In this document: piece by piece, positions 12,268 through 18,623 of the stretch
Position numbering within the stretch: position 1 is the first letter of the stretch
Layout: every line of letters starts with the position of its first letter
From: Carboxydocella sporoproducens DSM 16521
GTDB lineage: Bacteria > Bacillota > GCA-003054495 > Carboxydocellales > Carboxydocellaceae
NCBI RefSeq assembly: GCF_900167165.1
Contig: NZ_FUXM01000004.1
Coordinates: forward strand, 2,901-26,900
DNA length: 24,000 bases
Reading direction: 5' to 3'
Program-made: the position numbers and the translations under genes
Notes under the pieces: model-generated
The model's database searches: none
Seen by the model: the letters and a program-made list of their open reading frames with translations, nothing else
What the model was told of the DNA's origin: nothing

Positions 12268-12903
12268 GTGACTACCATCGATTGGTTGATTTTTTTCACC
12301 GGCCTGCTGGCTCTAGTGGCTCTTTTGTATTATCTTTTCATCCCCACCTGGCCCAGGCCAGCGCCCAAACCTGAACGGCAGGACCAGGAGTTCGCCAGTG
12401 AACTGGCCCCAGCCTTCCCGGTCAAAGAAATTGTAACAGATTTGCCCACCTATTACCAGGGAGATAATCGGCTAGTAGCTGTGGCCCGCGACCCGGAAAC
12501 TATTTTTGTCTACTGGCAGCTGGATCCGGTTTACCTGGAAAGCCTGGAGGCGGAATTACCAGCCCTGAAAAGCGGCATAACCCAGCTTCGTCTTTATCGA
12601 TATGATGAAACTACCGGGCAATGGCTGCTGGAAAATTGTAAAAACCTGACCAGTTTTGTGACCAGTTTTTATTTCCATCTGGCCCGCCCCGATGCCAGAT
12701 ATAAGGTGGAGTTAGGGCGATTGCTCAACAATCAACTCTTTTATTGCTTGCTGGTTAGCAATGAAGTAGTTACACCCAGAGCTTATTTTTCAGCTCTGAT
12801 TGATGAGAACTGGCCCCCCTTGCTGCCTTTATATCAACAATTACCGCAGAAAGAAAGGATGATTGGCTCCTATGTCCATTTCACAATTGCCCCAGATGTA
12901 TGA
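12268..12903 (+). CDS. DUF4912-like protein with N-terminal transmembrane anchor
   Basis: GTG start 6-7 nt after AAAGGAGG. One TM helix (IDWLIFFTGLLALVALLYYLFI), then LPTYYQGDNRLVAVARDPETIFVYWQL, the motif I associate with DUF4912. It is paralogous to the next ORF. Confidence 0.7.
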   Translation: MTTIDWLIFFTGLLALVALLYYLFIPTWPRPAPKPERQDQEFASELAPAFPVKEIVTDLPTYYQGDNRLVAVARDPETIFVYWQLDPVYLESLEAELPALKSGITQLRLYRYDETTGQWLLENCKNLTSFVTSFYFHLARPDARYKVELGRLLNNQLFYCLLVSNEVVTPRAYFSALIDENWPPLLPLYQQLPQKERMIGSYVHFTIAPDV

Positions 12904-13309
12904 GGAGAACCGTCTGGTCCTGTTAACCCGGGATCCCTGGTGGCTGTTTGCCTACTGGGACCTGCGCCATCCTATCGGGCCGCCTGATTTGCCCCGGTTT
13001 ATTCGCCTTTATCGCGGGGGCTTGAACGGCCCCCATTTTGATTATCCGGTACATCCCATGGCCAACAATTATTACCTGCGGGTTCCGGCCGCTAACTCCA
13101 CATATGTCGCCCAGCTGGGGCATCTGGAACAGGGGCAGTTTGTACCCTGGCTTACCTCCAATCCCGCCCTGACCCCGCGGGCAGAAGCCTCCGGCCGCTG
13201 GGATCCCGACTGGCCCCCTCTGGGCGTAGGGCCGGAAATTAAAGCCGGTACAGCTTCAGGCTGGGGAACTTCTCCCGGTTTCTGGAAAGCAGGTGAAAAA
13301 CATGCCTAA
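12872..13309 (+). CDS. DUF4912-like protein, soluble paralogue
   Basis: LPQMYEENRLVLLTRDPWWLFAYWDL...RLYR...TPRA...WPPL aligns with the upstream protein. It overlaps that gene by 32 nt and the GH57 gene by 8 nt. The start is ambiguous (ATG 12872 or TTG 12863). Confidence 0.7.
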   Translation: MSISQLPQMYEENRLVLLTRDPWWLFAYWDLRHPIGPPDLPRFIRLYRGGLNGPHFDYPVHPMANNYYLRVPAANSTYVAQLGHLEQGQFVPWLTSNPALTPRAEASGRWDPDWPPLGVGPEIKAGTASGWGTSPGFWKAGEKHA

Positions 13310-14921
13310 AGGCTATTTGGCTTTAGTGTTACATGCCCATTTACCCTATGTCCGGCATCCGGAAGATCCTGATGCTCTGGAAGAACGCTGGCTGTTTGAA
13401 GGCATCACTGAAACTTATATACCTTTACTGGCCAAATTTGAAAAACTGGTGGAGGATGGGGTGGATTTTCGGCTGACCATGTCTTTCAGCCCCACCCTGA
13501 CCTCCATGCTCCTGGATCCTCTGTTGCAAGAAAGGTATTATGTTTATTTAAGCAAATTAAGAGAGCTTATCTACAAAGAACTGGACCGTACCTATGGCGA
13601 TCCTCGTTTCCATCGCCTGGCTCAGATGTATCATTATCTGGTTAACCAGTGTTTTTATTATTTCTTTGAAAAATATGCCGGTAATTTATTAACCGGCTAT
13701 CGTCGCTTACAGGAAGCCGGACGATTGGAATTGATCACCTGTGGTGCTACCCATGCCTATTTCCCTTTAAATGGTTTGACCCGTCAGGCTGTACGGGCCC
13801 AGGTGGCTCTGGCCGTAGAAAACCACTGGCGGGTGTTTGGCAGTCAACCCCAGGGGATGTGGTTGCCAGAGTGTGCCTATCATCCCGGAGATGATGAATT
13901 TCTGGCGGAATTCGGCATTAGATACTTTTTCCTGGATACCCATGGTGTATTGTTTGCTTCCACCCGACCCCGTTACGGGGTCTATGCTCCCATTGTCACT
14001 CCCGCCGGGGTAGCAGCTTTCGGACGGGATGTGGAATCTTCCAAACAGGTCTGGAGTGCCGATGAAGGTTATCCCGGCGATTTCGATTACCGGGAATTCT
14101 ACCGGGACATCGGTTATGATTTGGATTATGACTATATCAAGGACTATATTCACCCCTCCGGTATCCGCTTACATACCGGCATCAAATATTACCGGATTAC
14201 GGGCAAGAAGAGCGAATGGAAAGAACCCTATGTGCCCGAGTGGGCTACAGAAAAGGCAGCCATCCACGCCGGCAACTTCATGTTCAACCGGGAACGCCAG
14301 GTTGAATACCTGGCGTCCCTGATGGACCGTAAACCCATTGTGGTAGCTCCCTATGATGCGGAATTGTTCGGTCACTGGTGGTTTGAAGGGCCTCAGTTCC
14401 TGGATTTTCTCTTGCGTAAAATCCATTATGATTCCAAAATCCTGAAAACTGCTACCCCTTCTGACTATCTGGCCGAATATCCCCGTAATCAGGTTACCGA
14501 ACCCTGCATCTCTTCCTGGGGCCATAAAGGATACCATGAAGTGTGGCTGGAAGGCAGTAATGACTGGATTTATCGGCATTTACACAAAGCCGCCGAACGG
14601 ATGACCGAATTGGCCCGCCGGTTTACTAATCCTACGGCAGAACAGGAACGGGCCCTCAACCAGGCCGCTCGTGAACTCTTACTGGCTCAGGCCAGTGACT
14701 GGGCCTTTATTATGAAAACAGGCACCATGGTGAATTATGCCATCAGACGTACCAAAAATCATATCCATAATTTCACCAGACTTTATGAACAATTGTTGCA
14801 AAACCAGCTGGATCTCCACTGGCTTCAAGAACTGGAAATTAATAACAATCTTTTCCCCTGGCTCAATTACCGCATTTATGCCTGGGAAGCTCCTCCTCAA
14901 AAAGCGAGGGCGTCGGTTTAA
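13302..14921 (+). CDS. GH57-family 1,4-alpha-glucan branching enzyme
   Basis: [18 protein letters not shown] at the N-terminus, GMWLPECAY (nucleophile Glu region) and [15 protein letters not shown] (acid/base Asp region) match my recollection of the Thermus/Thermococcus GH57 branching enzymes. ATG 13302 is preceded by AGGTGA. Confidence 0.9.
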
Positions 14922-14943
14922 CCGACACCCTCGCTTTCTTTCT
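14899..14943. terminator. Bidirectional intrinsic terminator containing both convergent stop codons
   Basis: 13-bp stem 14904..14916 / 14922..14934 (GCGAGGGCGTCGG / CCGACACCCTCGC). The one mispair is C-A on the plus RNA and G-U on the minus RNA. Loop is TTTAA. AAAAA lies on the left and TTTCTTTCT on the right. TAA (+) is 14919..14921 and TAA (-) is 14918..14920, within one TTAA. Confidence 0.75.
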
Positions 14944-17335
14944 GGATTTCCGTAATTTTTTGCAGCAACTGCTCAGTCAAGCTTTCTGCTATTTCCATGT
15001 CAGGTCCTTCCGCATAAATACGGCAAACGGGTTCCTCCGAATCGGGCAAAACCAGGGCCCAGGCGCCATTGTCCCAGAGCTTGATGCCATCCAGCAACTC
15101 CAACTCCCGATCCTGCAATTCTTCCATCAAGCGACGCATGACCAGGCCCTTGGCTTCCCAGGGACAGGCTGTGGATTTAGCAACCCAGTTAAAGTCAGGC
15201 AGCTCCTGTAACAGCCTTTCCAGCCCTTGCTCTTCCGCCTGCCTGAGCAGAACCAGCAGGGTATAGAGATCATCGGCCAGCAGGTAGAACCCCTCTTCAT
15301 CCTGCGCCCACTGATTCTGAATCAGGCCGGGATTAGTCTTGACCGGCTGAATCACCGCCCCCCGCTCTTGCAGGCGGCGGGCCAGGGCCTGGGGCCAGTG
15401 AACAGGATAGGGAATAACAGCTTGCTCTTTCCTTTGGGCATAGAGCCAGGTTTTCAGTATCTGAACCTGAGCGGGAGCCAAATACATTCCCCCGGGCAGA
15501 ACCAGGGATAAGCGTTCCCCTTCTTCCCCAAACCAGAGCCCCAGGTCCAATCTTTCTGTTTGTACCAGACTGATCAGCTGTTCCAGCTGCTGTTCCCCGT
15601 CCTGGAGATAGATGAGACGAAAACCGGTATCCTGAAAGATCCGGGGTAAAATCTGGGCCAGAGCCGGAGTCAGGGCCCCTACCCCAATTCGCCATTGATA
15701 ATTTTGTCCCCGCGGACGGAAATTGAGCAAAAAGCCGGTATATTCATCCAGTCCACTGGGCAAAGGCATAACCCGCCCCAGATGTCCGGCAGCTGTGCGC
15801 CGCATCCCTTCCCGTCCCAGCAGATTTTCCACCTTGCGTTCTTCTGCCGGAGTTAAGCTGGCTCCCTGCTGATTGAGGAGCAAAACCCGGGCCCGGTTGC
15901 CCTGCCCGCTGCCCTGAATATGCACCCCGCCACTGGCAGCCAGACTGCGAATCAAGTAGCGGCTGGCACCACCGGTCAGAATGCCGGCATCCCAGACCAC
16001 CATCCCTGCTCCCAGCAATCCCGCCAGAACAGCATGTTTCAGCATTGCTGCCGCCGGAGAATGGTCAGTGCTGACTAACAGGGCAGTTTCCGGCTGGAAT
16101 AGAGTGGCAAAAGCAGCCGCCACTTTCACCGCCTGTTCCGGAGTCAGTTCCCGGTTAATTTCTCCCACAATCCCCTCGCGCCCGAAGAGCGTACGGGGCT
16201 GGCGTTCTCCCCAAACCAGGTTTTCCCGCAGGCGGGCTCCGCTTTCCACCCGTTTCTGGGGCCAGATTTTTACCCCGGCATCTACATAAACCCGTTCGCC
16301 CAGTACCGTACCATCTCCGATCACCGCACCTTGATAAATCCGGCTCCCCTGACCCACCTTGACCTGACGGCAGAGGATAGCCCCGCGGATTTCTGCTCCG
16401 GCACCTATATTTACCCCTTCCCAGAGAACAGCCCGTTTAAGGCTGGCTTTGCTGCCGAGATGACAATTGCGGCCAATCACCGTAAAAGGCCCCACATAGG
16501 CCTCCGCATCAATAACGGTATCCGCTCCGATAAAAGCCGGCCCTTCCAGATAGGCCCGGGGATGGATTTTTGCCCCTGCCTCAGCCCAGACCCCCGGAGC
16601 TACCTGTTGACCGCCCAGTTCCAGCTGCACCCCACCGGCCAGCACGGCATAATGGGCTTCTGCATATTGTTGCAAATTGCCGATATCACACCAGTACCCC
16701 GCCAGGATACAGCCGAAGAGCGGTCTCCCTTCCGCCAGCAAGCGGGGAAAGAGATCTTTACTGAAATCAAACTGCTGACCTGCCGGAATATATTGCAATA
16801 CCCGGGGTTCCAGGATATAGATCCCGGTATTGACCGTATCACTGAAAACCTCACTCCAGCTGGGTTTTTCCAGGAAACGATAGATACTGCCATTTTTATC
16901 AGTCATCACTACCCCGTATTCCAGAGGTGTCTGGACCCGGGTCAAAACCAGGGTTGCCCAGGCACCCTTTTGCCGATGAAACTCAATGGCCCGGCTCAGG
17001 TCAAAATCCGTCAGCGCATCACCACTGATAACAATAAAAGGTTCATCCAAAAATTCTTCTGCATTTTTGACACTGCCAGCAGTGCCCAGGGGAGTTTCCT
17101 CCAGAAAATAGCGCATTTCCACCCCCCAGTCACTGCCATCGCCAAAATATTCCATAATGGCCTCCGGCAGATACTGCAAGGTAACCCCAATCTGACGGAT
17201 GCCATGTTTTTTCAGGAGATTGACAATGTGTTCCATCACCGGCCGGTTCAGTAAAGGCGTCAGAGGTTTGGGCCGGTCACAGGTTAATGGTCTCAGTCGG
17301 GAACCTTCCCCTCCCGCCATAATAATGGCTTTCAT
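14918..17335 (-). CDS. Sugar-1-phosphate nucleotidyltransferase + left-handed beta-helix + phosphohexomutase-like C-terminal domain (fusion protein)
   Basis: The N-terminus [22 protein letters not shown] is the GGxGxRL NTP-transferase signature. Residues about 270-360 carry hexapeptide repeats. Residues about 381-805 start with [13 protein letters not shown] and follow PGM/PMM domain order. GGAGGT lies 6 nt before the ATG. Confidence 0.85.
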
Positions 17336-17355: not shown

Positions 17356-18528
17356 TTATTGTTCTGCCAGAATTTCTTCATAAACTGCTACCGTAGTGCG
17401 GGCAATTTTGTCCCAGTTATAGATTTCCAGCACCTCCCGGTAGGCCCTTTCTTCCACCTGCCGGGCAAAGGGCGGATCACAGAGAATTTTCAGCACATTA
17501 TCGGCCAGGGAATCAGGAGAACCTACATAGCATTTCAAACCATTTACGCCATGTTTAATAATTTCCCCCAGTCCACCGGTATCACTGACTACCACTGGCG
17601 TCCGGGCCGCCATAGCTTCCAGGGCCACAATACCAAAAGGTTCATACAGGCTGGGAAAAACCGCAACGGAAGCAGAACGGTACAGTTTATTACGGGTCAC
17701 ATCATCGATATAACCGGTAAAATAAATTCTCTCTGTCACGCCCATCTCCCAGGCCTTTTGCCGCAAATAACCTTCCGCCGGCCCTCGACCGGCGATAACG
17801 AACTTGGTCTGGGGATGGTAATGGAGAATTTTCGGAATGGCATCCAGCAAGACATGCGCCCCTTTTTCATGCACCAGCCGTCCTACGAAAAAGACGATTT
17901 TTTCGGTAGGATGGGCATATCGATTGCGAAAATCCGGTTCAGGTTCGGTTTGAAAATCCTCCGGCCTTACGCCGTTCGGTATGATACGGATTTTGTCTTC
18001 CGGCAGAGAGAATATGTATCTCACCTCATTATGCATATATTGACTGCAAACAATCACCCGCCAGGCTTCATAAGTCAGCCACCACTCCACATCACTGATA
18101 TAGCGCTGGTTATCATCATGCAGCCCCCAGTTGCGCCCGAATTCAGTGGCATGAATGGTAGCTACCAGTGGAATGTTCTGAGCGTGTTTAACCGCCCGGC
18201 TGACATATGCAGTTAACCAGTCATGGCAGTGAACAATATCCCAGGGGGCTGATTGGCTATCCCGCAAAGTCATGGTGAATTCCAGCATGGCCAGGTTCAA
18301 CTGCAAAATCCAGGTGCGAAAATCCGGAGCCCGCAAATGATATGGCTGGACGCGATAAACCTCCACCCCCTCTATATTTTCATAGGCAGGCAGGTTATCT
18401 CCCCCGCAGGTGACAACCTGAATTTCATGGCCCTGTTTGGCCGTGGCCAGAGTCAAATCATGCACATGCCGGGCCAGACCGCCTACGCTTTTGGGCGGAA
18501 ACTCCCAGGAATACATTAATATACGCAC
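17356..18528 (-). CDS. Retaining glycosyltransferase (GT4/GT5-like), glycogen-synthase-like
   Basis: N-terminal [21 protein letters not shown] resembles the K-x-GGL motif of archaeal-type glycogen synthases. E-x7-E motif present (EPFGIVALE). The likely start is GTG 18528 (AAAGGGGG + 6 nt), because the track ATG 18534 abuts the SD. Confidence 0.85.
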
Positions 18529-18592
18529 TGTCATCCCCCTTTCGTTCTGGATTTACTTGATTAGTTTATCCAGCGGGACGGAAAAATATGAT

Positions 18593-18623
18593 AAAAAAAG
18601 GGCATGGTTTACACCATGCGCCC
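18593..18623 (-). terminator. Rho-independent terminator after the CBM-gene triplet
   Basis: Minus strand GGGC(GC)ATGGT-GTAA-ACCATGCCC (9 bp plus a 2-nt bulge) followed by TTTTTTT. The stop codon of the 18609 gene sits in the loop. Confidence 0.7.

What the first reader, a model, noticed from the sequence alone, without database searches (positions are those of the whole stretch)
14918..16195. Phosphohexomutase-like domain fused to a nucleotidyltransferase appears to have lost all four catalytic motifs
The C-terminal 425 aa or so follow the four-domain order and motif spacing of alpha-D-phosphohexomutases, but each signature is substituted. The phosphoserine loop (T/G)(A/S)SHNP reads QGSGQGN (in [12 protein letters not shown], 15896..15931, checked by hand). 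The metal loop DGDGDR reads GEEGER (15512..15529). The sugar loop GE(E/x)SGH reads DEEGFY (about 15287..15304). The phosphate-binding loop RxSGTEP reads LPDSEEP (15029..15049). If my alignment by eye is right, this is a pseudo-mutase. It could be a sugar-phosphate-sensing allosteric domain, replacing the regulation of classical GlgC, or a scaffold. The fusion would then not be the simple bifunctional Glc-6-P to NDP-Glc enzyme its architecture implies.
Basis: partly seen in the sequence, partly recalled or inferred. Interest (0 to 1): 0.6.

Follow-up and report, generated by a model that had tools for sequence, protein, structure and literature searches.

The report
Sugar-nucleotide enzyme with dead mutase domain
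This gene joins an apparently working sugar-activating enzyme to a full copy of a sugar-phosphate mutase that has lost its catalytic loops yet is still conserved. The same holds for the whole widespread bacterial family, so the database label "bifunctional" is probably half wrong.

Summary
The ORF at 14918..17335 (-) encodes 805 aa: an intact NTP-transferase, a left-handed beta-helix, and a four-domain phosphohexomutase fold (hhalign probability 100 against this genome's own mutases; Foldseek TM 0.80-0.83 to archaeal PGM/PPM). The sugar loop is deleted rather than substituted, and a Ser still sits in the nucleophile column.

This is not a one-off. None of about 350 relatives from six or more phyla has a canonical Ser or phosphate loop. 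They share their own signature instead: L-P-D-x-x-x-P replaces R-x-S-G-T-E-P, and there is a K-G-x-x-x-R helix motif.

The domain is under purifying selection (dN/dS 0.09). The genome has three intact stand-alone mutases.

Here the gene follows a GT4/5 glucan synthase and faces a GH57 branching enzyme. The genome has no GlgC. Elsewhere the family often stands alone, and it shows no significant complementarity with GlgC.

Most likely it is an NDP-glucose pyrophosphorylase carrying a non-catalytic assembly or regulatory module. A canonical sugar-phosphate sensor is disfavoured because the phosphate loop is acidic.

This scan reached the same conclusion for this family on other DNA several times. 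I found no published characterisation.

The parts
14918..17335 (-). Whole fusion ORF, 805 aa (P0001), ATG start, TAA stop
   Evidence: GGAGG lies 7 nt upstream of the ATG.
16631..17335 (-). Sugar-1-phosphate nucleotidylyltransferase domain (residues 1-235) with intact motifs: GGxGxRLRPLT...PK, SGD, FLEKP, YWCDIG
   Evidence: Pfam PF00483 at 7e-57. PDB 8x7s (tlr0611, UTP-glucose-1-P uridylyltransferase) at 1.2e-72; 39% identity and TM 0.79. The motif residues are invariant in 103 relatives.
16211..16630 (-). Left-handed beta-helix (hexapeptide) domain and low-confidence linker (residues 236-375)
   Evidence: PF25084 LbH_EIF2B at 1.3e-19 and Hexapep. AF2 pLDDT is below 50 for residues 354-381.
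14921..16210 (-). Four-domain phosphohexomutase-fold pseudo-mutase (residues 376-805)
   Evidence: hhalign probability 100 against the genome's own mutases. Arch_GlmM 133 bits against a cut-off of 439. Foldseek 9ix8/9du5 TM 0.80-0.83. dN/dS 0.087.
15896..15931 (-). Former phosphoserine loop: [12 protein letters not shown] instead of GGxxxTASHNPxxxNG. Ser476 is in the nucleophile column, but H, N and P are lost.
15512..15529 (-). Former metal loop: GEEGER instead of DGDxDR. The family consensus is D-x-N/D/G-G/A-E/D-R and is variable.
15272..15316 (-). Region where the sugar loop GE(E/Q)SG(H) should lie (residues 674-688). The loop is deleted or remodelled and its length varies in the family. 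Only the following Asp688 is conserved (280 of 288).
15029..15049 (-). Former phosphate-binding loop: LPDSEEP instead of RxSGTEP. This acidic loop is the family's hallmark (P764 in 286 of 288, D765 in 263 of 288; Arg never present).
15134..15163 (-). Family-specific conserved motif PWEAKGxVMR at the start of the first helix of domain IV. K729 is K in 270 and R in 13 of 288, G730 in 284, R734 in 279. It is not conserved in true mutases.
17356..18534 (-). Upstream gene, 20 nt away on the same strand: GT4/GT5-type alpha-glucan (glycogen) synthase-like glycosyltransferase, probably co-transcribed
   Evidence: It lies immediately upstream of the fusion in 28 of 82 related loci.
13293..14921 (+). 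Convergent GH57 1,4-alpha-glucan branching enzyme. Its stop overlaps the fusion's stop (TTAA at 14918..14921).
   Evidence: It is present within 6 kb in 20 of 82 related loci.
12268..12903 (+). DUF4912 gene of the same conserved cluster

Best explanation
The gene encodes a single-activity enzyme. The N-terminal NTP-transferase/LbH half is of the CugP/GMPP type. It converts glucose-1-phosphate, made by one of the genome's three stand-alone intact mutases, plus an NTP into NDP-glucose. UDP-glucose is most likely by similarity and ADP-glucose is possible. The product goes to the co-transcribed GT4/5 glucan synthase, and possibly to the orphan classical GlgA.

The C-terminal 430 residues keep the four-domain phosphohexomutase fold but cannot carry out the phospho-Ser/Mg2+ mutase reaction. 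This state is ancient and shared by the whole family across phyla. The domain is maintained by purifying selection for a non-catalytic role.

The role I consider most likely is an assembly or docking module. Domain I would mediate oligomerisation, as in the tetrameric archaeal-type mutases it descends from. Domain IV would present a remodelled, invariant acidic loop and a K/R helix as an interaction or regulatory surface. Together they would modulate or organise the pyrophosphorylase.

Shown here: the fold, the loss of motifs, the family-wide pattern, the selection, the genomic context and the presence of true mutases. Inferred: the NDP-glucose product, and the non-catalytic assembly or regulatory role.
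For: Motif loss is shown by two alignment methods. No canonical Ser or phosphate loop occurs in 120 + 147 + 79 relatives. Column counts come from 288 full-length members.

The fold is retained: AF2 pLDDT 82.8, and Foldseek TM 0.80-0.83 to 9ix8/9du5.

dN/dS is 0.087 for the PGM-like part against 0.056 for the NTP domain, measured against an 85%-identical syntenic orthologue.

The conservation pattern is the opposite of that in an enzyme. Domains II and III carry the metal and sugar loops, yet have only 4 of 105 and 5 of 85 conserved columns. Domains I and IV have 24 of 145 and 20 of 90.

The N-terminal catalytic motifs are invariant. The best structural match is tlr0611, a UDP-Glc pyrophosphorylase.

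The genome has GlmM plus two PGM/PMM enzymes with intact TASHNP, DGDxDR, GE(E/Q)SG and RxSGTEP. It has no GlgC above the cut-off; the fusion is the best glgC-model hit at 113 bits. It has an orphan GT5 GlgA and a GlgP.

The synthase-fusion-GH57-DUF4912-CBM53 order is conserved in distant Bacillota.

The closest structural relative, T. kodakarensis PGM, is a D2 tetramer held by N-terminal helices (PMC11940775).

In S. coelicolor, a similarly built gene (SCO1388) gave no GMP phenotype when disrupted. It did not rescue a manB mutant either (PMC5982138). Whether SCO1388 belongs to this family was not tested here.
Against: There is no biochemical datum for any member. Nucleotide and sugar specificity are inferred from 39% identity only.

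Ser476 sits in the nucleophile column of this protein. Most family members keep two of the three acidic metal-loop positions (D603 in 201 of 288; E/D607 in 263 of 288). A weak or altered phosphotransfer chemistry in some members therefore cannot be excluded.

The assembly or docking role has only indirect support. The AF2 monomer shows no confident contact between the two halves (pTM 0.60, disordered linker), and no multimer prediction was possible.

Conserved K729/R734 and R664/K666 could instead form a new anion-binding (ligand-sensing) site.
Confidence: 0.75

Rival explanations
1. Allosteric sensor. The pseudo-mutase cleft still binds a metabolite such as a sugar phosphate, a bisphosphate or a nucleotide sugar. 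It transmits this to the pyrophosphorylase, giving GlgC-like feedback control.
For: The cleft-forming fold is kept. Family-specific basic residues are conserved: K729, R734, R664/K666 and R/K474. This genome lacks GlgC. GMPPA, a dead paralogue, regulates GMPPB by ligand binding (structures 7d72-7d74 appear among the hits; the mechanism is from my own knowledge).
Against: The canonical phosphate-binding loop has become invariantly acidic, and the sugar loop is deleted. The window protein itself has Pro at the family's R664 and Gln at R/K474. The family is not tied to glucan clusters or to absence of GlgC.
Confidence: 0.25
2. True bifunctional mannose-1-phosphate guanylyltransferase/phosphomannomutase, as labelled by JGI/KEGG-style annotation.
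For: The domain architecture matches, and the source names say so. PGM_PMM_I scores above its Pfam cut-off.
Against: All four catalytic loops are lost or remodelled across the family. The Arch_GlmM score is 133 bits against a cut-off of 439. Intact mutases are encoded elsewhere. S. coelicolor genetics fit an inactive mutase half.
Confidence: 0.03
3. Neo-functionalised catalyst. The remodelled cleft (His472, Asp765/Glu767/Glu768, Lys729/Arg734 and residual acidic metal-loop residues) carries out a different reaction on a sugar phosphate or the growing glucan, for example phosphatase, transferase or primer formation.
For: Purifying selection is strong. Invariant polar residues are concentrated in domain IV. 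Partial retention of metal-loop acids in most members.
Against: No polar residue in the former active-site loops is invariant except D765. H472 is replaced by Y, T or F in 57 of 288 members. The metal loop is highly variable, and in this protein it reads GEEGER. Domains II and III are nearly unconstrained.
Confidence: 0.07
4. Decaying relic. The domain is a fusion remnant with no function, kept only because removing it would destabilise the enzyme.
For: Domains II and III are poorly conserved. The window protein deviates at 7 of 53 family-conserved positions, against a median of 3.
Against: dN/dS is 0.04-0.13 in every sub-domain. The full length is retained, with no truncated forms, in at least 600 species genomes from several phyla. 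New motifs are invariant.
Confidence: 0.05

Closest known systems
CugP/GMPP-type NDP-hexose pyrophosphorylases (Thermosynechococcus tlr0611, PDB 8x7s; human GMPPB 7d72; Arabidopsis VTC1 7x8j)
   Same: The N-terminal 1-365 has the same NTP-transferase + LbH architecture and the same catalytic motifs. Identity to tlr0611 is 39% with TM 0.79.
   Different: Those enzymes end after the LbH domain. This protein carries an extra 430-residue mutase-fold domain. Its substrate specificity is untested.
Archaeal-type alpha-D-phosphohexomutases (T. kodakarensis PGM/PMM 9DU5 and phosphopentomutase 9IX8; P. horikoshii 1WQA; S. tokodaii 2F7L; NCBIfam TIGR03990)
   Same: The four-domain fold and domain order are the same, with TM 0.78-0.83 and 19-23% identity. 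Structural residues are shared: the GG before the Ser loop, W759, P769, R772 and E776.
   Different: The Ser-His-Asn-Pro, DxDxDR, GExSG and RxSGTEP loops are lost or deleted. The domain is fused to a pyrophosphorylase. It scores far below the family cut-off (133 against 439 bits).
Database family labelled 'mannose-1-phosphate guanylyltransferase/phosphomannomutase' (JGI names; KEGG K16881 by my recollection), including S. coelicolor SCO1388 (Howlett et al. 2018, PMC5982138)
   Same: It has the same three-part architecture. The window protein is an ordinary, somewhat divergent member: it keeps 46 of 53 family-conserved positions in the mutase-like part.
   Different: The label implies mutase activity, which the sequences contradict. 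SCO1388 was called bifunctional from its domains only, and its disruption gave no phenotype. I did not verify that SCO1388 carries the LPD signature.
ADP-glucose pyrophosphorylase GlgC (TIGR02091)
   Same: It has the same superfamily fold (NTP-transferase + LbH) and sits in a glucan-synthesis cluster. It is the best glgC-model hit in a genome without GlgC.
   Different: It scores 113 bits against a cut-off of 425. The GlgC regulatory C-terminal features were not assessed. The family co-occurs with true GlgC in 15 of 63 carrier genomes.
Dead-paralogue regulators and scaffolds: GMPPA (regulates GMPPB), eIF2B gamma/epsilon, vertebrate PGM5/aciculin (inactive PGM used as a structural protein). Cited from my own knowledge.
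   Same: The principle is the same: a catalytically dead copy of a sugar-nucleotide or mutase enzyme is retained for regulation or scaffolding.
   Different: Here the dead module is a mutase fused in cis to an active pyrophosphorylase. No homology-based link to those cases exists beyond the shared superfamilies.

Membership tests
Catalytically active alpha-D-phosphohexomutase | Four-domain PGM/PMM fold in canonical order | tested here: met
   hhalign probability 100 over 406 columns. Foldseek TM 0.80-0.83.
Catalytically active alpha-D-phosphohexomutase | Phosphoserine loop (T/S)(A/S)SH(N/L)P | tested here: not met
   It reads QGSG-QG. Ser476 is in the nucleophile column, but His, Asn and Pro are absent. 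The family column is P in 115 and S in 36 of 288.
Catalytically active alpha-D-phosphohexomutase | Metal-binding loop DxDxDR | tested here: not met
   It reads GEEGER. Only 1 of about 350 relatives has DGDADR.
Catalytically active alpha-D-phosphohexomutase | Sugar-binding loop GE(x)SG(H) | tested here: not met
   It falls in a gap of about 13 columns in the profile-profile alignment, and the region varies in length.
Catalytically active alpha-D-phosphohexomutase | Phosphate-binding loop RxSGTEP | tested here: not met
   It reads LPDSEEP. Arg never occurs in that column among 288 members.
Catalytically active alpha-D-phosphohexomutase | Curated model score (TIGR03990 cut-off 439 bits; Pfam PGM_PMM_II, III and IV) | tested here: not met
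   132.8 bits. Only PGM_PMM_I passes, domain IV scores 12.4 bits, and domains II and III are undetected.
Catalytically active alpha-D-phosphohexomutase | Mutase activity dependent on Glc-1,6-bisP and Mg2+ | not testable with these tools
   Needs an enzyme assay.
Sugar-1-phosphate nucleotidylyltransferase (PF00483, CugP/GMPP type with LbH) | Pfam score above the cut-off, plus an LbH domain | tested here: met
   193 bits against 21.2; LbH_EIF2B 70.6 against 54.
Sugar-1-phosphate nucleotidylyltransferase (PF00483, CugP/GMPP type with LbH) | GxGxRx(n)K signature, (F/V)EKP, catalytic Asp (SGD) and WxDxG | tested here: met
   G9-x-G11-x-R13...K23, S104-G105-D106, E156-K157-P158 and W215/D217/G219 are all invariant in 103 relatives.
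Sugar-1-phosphate nucleotidylyltransferase (PF00483, CugP/GMPP type with LbH) | Nucleotide and sugar specificity (UTP/Glc-1-P for CugP) | not testable with these tools
   There is only 39% identity to tlr0611.
GlgC (ADP-glucose pyrophosphorylase) | TIGR02091 score above 424.9 bits | tested here: not met
   111.6-112.7 bits.
NTP-transferase/LbH/pseudo-mutase fusion family (unnamed; labelled ManC/ManB) | Three-part architecture of about 800-840 aa | tested here: met
   805 aa, with full-length matches to at least 80 genome loci and more than 250 proteins.
NTP-transferase/LbH/pseudo-mutase fusion family (unnamed; labelled ManC/ManB) | Family signature: [LIVM]-P-D-x-x-x-P loop, K-G-x-x-x-R helix, D688, GG-x-H | tested here: met
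   LPDSEEP, K729-G730...R734, D688 and GGVH are all present. 46 of 53 family-conserved positions are kept.

The most novel reading that the evidence does not exclude
The dead mutase domain is a so-far undescribed regulatory or assembly module. It defines a distinct, phylum-spanning class of NDP-sugar pyrophosphorylases. Its remodelled cleft or acidic domain-IV loop would sense a metabolite or dock a partner, such as the neighbouring glucan synthase or a true mutase. In GlgC-less spore-forming Bacillota it would then control flux into a non-classical glycogen pathway made of a GT4/5 synthase, a GH57 branching enzyme, DUF4912 and CBM53 proteins.
Probability: 0.3. Interest if true: 0.65.

Novelty: new variant of a known kind. 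Interest (0 to 1): 0.5.

Why it matters
Thousands of genomes carry this gene under the label 'bifunctional guanylyltransferase/phosphomannomutase' or a vague 'nucleotidyltransferase'. If the mutase half is dead, metabolic reconstructions that credit these organisms with a ManB/PGM activity from this gene are wrong.

The conserved, remodelled domain also points to an unstudied way of organising or regulating nucleotide-sugar supply. In this genome that supply is probably the entry step of a non-classical glycogen pathway that has no GlgC.

It is also a clean bacterial example of a pseudoenzyme domain kept in cis for a very long time. It can be tested directly with a truncation and a few point mutants.

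Tried and rejected
- **Stand-alone forms of the pseudo-mutase.** The 28 short hits (under 560 aa) mostly begin inside the LbH domain or domain I, so they look like fragments. I found no evidence for a free-standing form.
- **Recurrent partner genes.** I clustered all flanking ORFs of 82 loci. Only the GT4/5 synthase, GH57 and DUF4912 recur, and only in Bacillota-type loci. Nothing is universal.
- **'Fusion replaces GlgC'.** This was tested on 151 genomes and was not significant.
- **Intermediate forms with intact motifs.** Only P0219 keeps DGDADR, and it lacks the Ser and phosphate loops.
- **Literature.** Searches on fusion/GH57/glycogen, pseudoenzyme + phosphoglucomutase, K16881, 8X7S and DUF4912 found no characterisation of the family.
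- **Papers and look-ups not available.** The CugP paper (PMC4054166) is not held. The look-up of P0038 found no record.
- **Structure.** Model coordinates are not exposed. I could therefore not map conserved residues onto the cleft or examine contacts between the halves.
- **SCO1388.** The second homologue search was dominated by Acidimicrobiales and did not return Streptomyces. Membership of SCO1388 in this family stays unverified.


Full report
**The gene.** The window holds one long ORF on the minus strand, 14918..17335, of 805 aa. Its ATG is preceded by GGAGG at a 7-nt spacing. It lies 20 nt downstream of the stop of a 392-aa glycosyltransferase gene on the same strand. Pfam finds NTP_transferase (residues 2-232, 7e-57), a left-handed beta-helix (LbH_EIF2B, 249-350) and PGM_PMM_I (382-508, 6e-17). 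PGM_PMM_IV reaches only 12 bits, and domains II and III are not detected. NCBIfam aligns residues 382-794 end to end with the archaeal-type mutase model TIGR03990, but at 133 bits against a cut-off of 439.

**Checking the observation.** Three sit at exactly the stated coordinates, and DEEGFY is 3 nt off. I placed the motifs with two independent alignments.
- phmmer against PDB aligns residues 383-802 with the whole T. kodakarensis phosphopentomutase 9ix8.
- A profile of 103 family members aligns with the three genuine mutases of the same genome at probability 100, E 4e-53, over 406 columns.

Both alignments give the same picture:

| Canonical loop | Window protein |
|---|---|
| ...TASHNP... 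| ...QGS-G-QG... |
| DGDADR | GEEGER |
| RPSGTEP | LPDSEEP |

The sugar loop GE(E/Q)SG does not correspond to DEEGFY; it falls in a gap of about 13 columns and is effectively deleted. Ser476 does occupy the nucleophile column, but without the His-Asn-Pro context. The N-terminal FGTDGxRG arginine is also lost (FGREGIVG).

**The fold is intact.** An AlphaFold2 model built on the 103-sequence alignment has mean pLDDT 82.8, with the mutase-like part mostly between 80 and 95. The linker (residues 354-381) is disordered and pTM is 0.60. Foldseek matches the N-terminal half to tlr0611, PDB 8x7s, deposited as UTP-glucose-1-phosphate uridylyltransferase (39% identity, TM 0.79). It matches the C-terminal half to archaeal-type PGM/PMM and phosphopentomutase (9du5, 9ix8, 2f7l, 1wqa; TM 0.78-0.83, 19-23% identity). 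No solved chain covers both halves.

**The loss is family-wide and old.**
- A search with residues 381-805 returned 193 proteins. Nearly all are 800-835-aa fusions from Bacillota.
- A full HMMER pass over 1.8 billion cluster representatives gave 110 hits at or below 1e-30. The top 150 are again fusions or fragments of them.
It returned full-length matches from Bacillota (Clostridia, Desulfotomaculia, Bacilli such as Fictibacillus and Paenibacillus), Actinomycetota (Acidimicrobiia, Coriobacteriia, Gaiellaceae), Chloroflexota, Armatimonadota, Eremiobacterota and Dormibacterota.
- None of these 120 + 147 + 79 sequences has a canonical phosphoserine loop or phosphate loop. One (P0219) has DGDADR.

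In an alignment of 288 non-identical full-length members:
- The phosphate loop is replaced by [L]-P-D-x-[ED]-x-P. P764 occurs in 286 members and D765 in 263. The canonical Arg never occurs.
- The nucleophile column is Pro in 115 members and Ser in 36.
- The metal loop is variable.
- A motif absent from true mutases, P-W-E-A-K-G-x-V-M-R at the first helix of domain IV, is nearly invariant: K729 is K in 270 and R in 13, G730 in 284, R734 in 279.

The pattern of constraint is the reverse of that in an enzyme. Columns conserved in at least 80% of members number 109 of 235 in the NTP domain. They number 24 of 145 in domain I and 20 of 90 in domain IV. Domains II and III should carry the metal and sugar loops, yet have only 4 of 105 and 5 of 85. 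The window protein keeps 46 of the 53 family-conserved positions of the mutase-like part. It is a somewhat divergent but ordinary member.

**The domain is not decaying.** I compared the gene with a syntenic orthologue from another assembly (L091, 85% amino-acid identity). dN/dS is 0.087 for residues 376-805, with sub-domains between 0.04 and 0.13. The NTP domain gives 0.056. dS is about 1.2.

**The N-terminal half looks active.** The GxGxR...K signature, SGD, FLEKP and WxDxG are all present and invariant in the family.

**The genome does not need a mutase here.** The assembly is 99.4% complete. It encodes a GlmM and two PGM/PMM-type enzymes, each with intact (T/S)ASHNP, DGDxDR, GE(E/Q)SG and R(P/F)SGTEP. 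Its other NTP-transferases are GalU, GlmU and a ManC-like protein. No GlgC reaches the model cut-off; the best hit to the glgC model is the fusion itself, at 113 against 425 bits. A classical GT5 GlgA sits alone among unrelated genes on another contig, and a glycogen phosphorylase is present.

**Genomic context.** The upstream gene is a GT4/GT5-type synthase: its N-terminus matches the starch-synthase catalytic domain, and its best NCBIfam hit is a glycogen-synthase subfamily, below the cut-off. The convergent downstream gene is a GH57 branching enzyme, preceded by DUF4912 genes. The same order, with CBM53 genes, occurs in three other places:
- Dehalobacterium formicoaceticum
- a run-derived (Logan) contig encoding the protein that NCBI names from Sporohalobacter salinus
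- the close relative L091

Among 82 related loci, the synthase lies immediately upstream in 28 and GH57 lies within 6 kb in 20. These are mostly Bacillota. The other loci have no glucan genes nearby. In Ruminiclostridium hungatei the gene lies between lepA, a thioesterase gene and a GDSL lipase gene. In Aquihabitans it lies beside a DUF2079 membrane-protein gene. Clustering of all neighbours found no universal partner.

In 151 genomes sampled from the phylum:

| | GlgC present | GlgC not found |
|---|---|---|
| Fusion present (63) | 15 | 48 |
| Fusion not found (88) | 31 | 57 |

The odds ratio is 0.57 and p is 0.15, and related genomes are not independent. The fusion is therefore not a general stand-in for GlgC, although in this genome it is the only GlgC-like enzyme.

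**Interpretation.** The parts that are shown are these:
- an intact pyrophosphorylase half;
- a mutase fold without mutase loops;
- family-wide and ancient loss;
- purifying selection;
- true mutases encoded elsewhere;
- a glucan-synthesis neighbourhood in this lineage.

I infer that the enzyme makes NDP-glucose for the adjacent synthase. UDP-glucose is favoured by the 39% identity to tlr0611, and ADP-glucose is not excluded.

I also infer that the C-terminal domain has a non-catalytic role, most likely assembly or docking. Three observations point that way. Constraint is concentrated in domain I and domain IV. Domain I corresponds to the N-terminal region whose helices 2 and 3 form the dimer interface of the tetrameric T. 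kodakarensis PGM (PMC11940775). The former phosphate-binding loop has been turned into an invariant acidic surface.

Note that the window protein itself lacks two of those residues (R664 is Pro, R/K474 is Gln). A residual or new catalytic activity is unlikely, because no polar residue of the old active-site loops other than D765 is invariant. It can only be excluded at the bench.

**Comparison with what is known.** The N-terminal half is a member of the CugP/GMPP-type sugar-1-phosphate nucleotidylyltransferases by every sequence criterion tested. The C-terminal half belongs to the phosphohexomutase superfamily by fold, but it fails every catalytic criterion. It should therefore not be filed as a mutase.

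Source databases name the family 'mannose-1-phosphate guanylyltransferase/phosphomannomutase'. The only experimental work I found on a protein of this architecture is on S. coelicolor SCO1388 (PMC5982138).
- It was called bifunctional from its domains alone.
- Its disruption gave no phenotype, alone or combined with other GMP genes.
- Loss of the separate manB (sco3028) was severe even though sco1388 was intact.

This fits a dead mutase half. I could not verify that SCO1388 carries the family signature.

Conceptual parallels are GMPPA, eIF2B gamma/epsilon and vertebrate PGM5 (from my own knowledge).

Earlier follow-ups of this scan reached the same conclusion for this family on other genomes. 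My tests here were independent of those notes, except for the SCO1388 lead.

**Limits.**
- No model coordinates or multimer prediction.
- No biochemistry.
- Nucleotide specificity and the role of the dead domain remain inferences.

Noticed in passing
own genome G000:C55:958-2442 (L092:958-2442, minus strand): A classical GT5 GlgA (570 bits, above the cut-off) sits alone between a contig end and tldD/aro genes. The genome has no GlgC above the cut-off, so its NDP-glucose source is unexplained unless the fusion or GalU supplies it.
   Followed up: partly
own genome contig C72, about 17.5-25.7 kb (L006, L003): A ManC-like guanylyltransferase (354 aa), a CotS-family spore-coat protein and an intact PGM/PMM (459 aa) lie within about 6 kb. 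A GT4-like hit lies at C72:25173-25745. This may be a spore-surface glycan locus.
   Followed up: no
window 14918..14921: The fusion gene and the convergent GH57 gene overlap by 4 nt. The palindrome TTAA supplies TAA on both strands.
   Followed up: no
window 18602..18619 (minus strand): A terminator-like hairpin followed by a T-run lies between the CBM53-like genes and the glucan-synthase gene. The synthase and the fusion may therefore form their own two-gene transcription unit.
   Followed up: no
genomes G013, G017, G098, G136, G049, G088, G126: Several genomes of the phylum carry two or three matches to the pseudo-mutase domain, some in about 860-aa frames. Some second copies give separate matches for the two halves of the domain. 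These look like paralogous fusions with more divergent mutase-like parts.
   Followed up: no
protein P0219 (830 aa): This is the only family member seen with an intact DGDADR metal loop. Its Ser loop and phosphate loop (HPSPEEP) are non-canonical. It may be a less-derived state.
   Followed up: partly
loci L042 and L064: MAGs labelled Betaproteobacteria and Desulfovibrio carry a Bacillota-type synthase + fusion arrangement, with 55-57% identity in the N-terminal half. The cause is probably mis-binning or mislabelling rather than transfer.
   Followed up: no
G083:C3:97235-98557 and G142:C3:13317-14627: Each of these homologues has one in-frame stop (TGA and TAA respectively) in or near the match. 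This could reflect a sequencing error, a pseudogene or an adjacent gene; I did not examine it.
   Followed up: no
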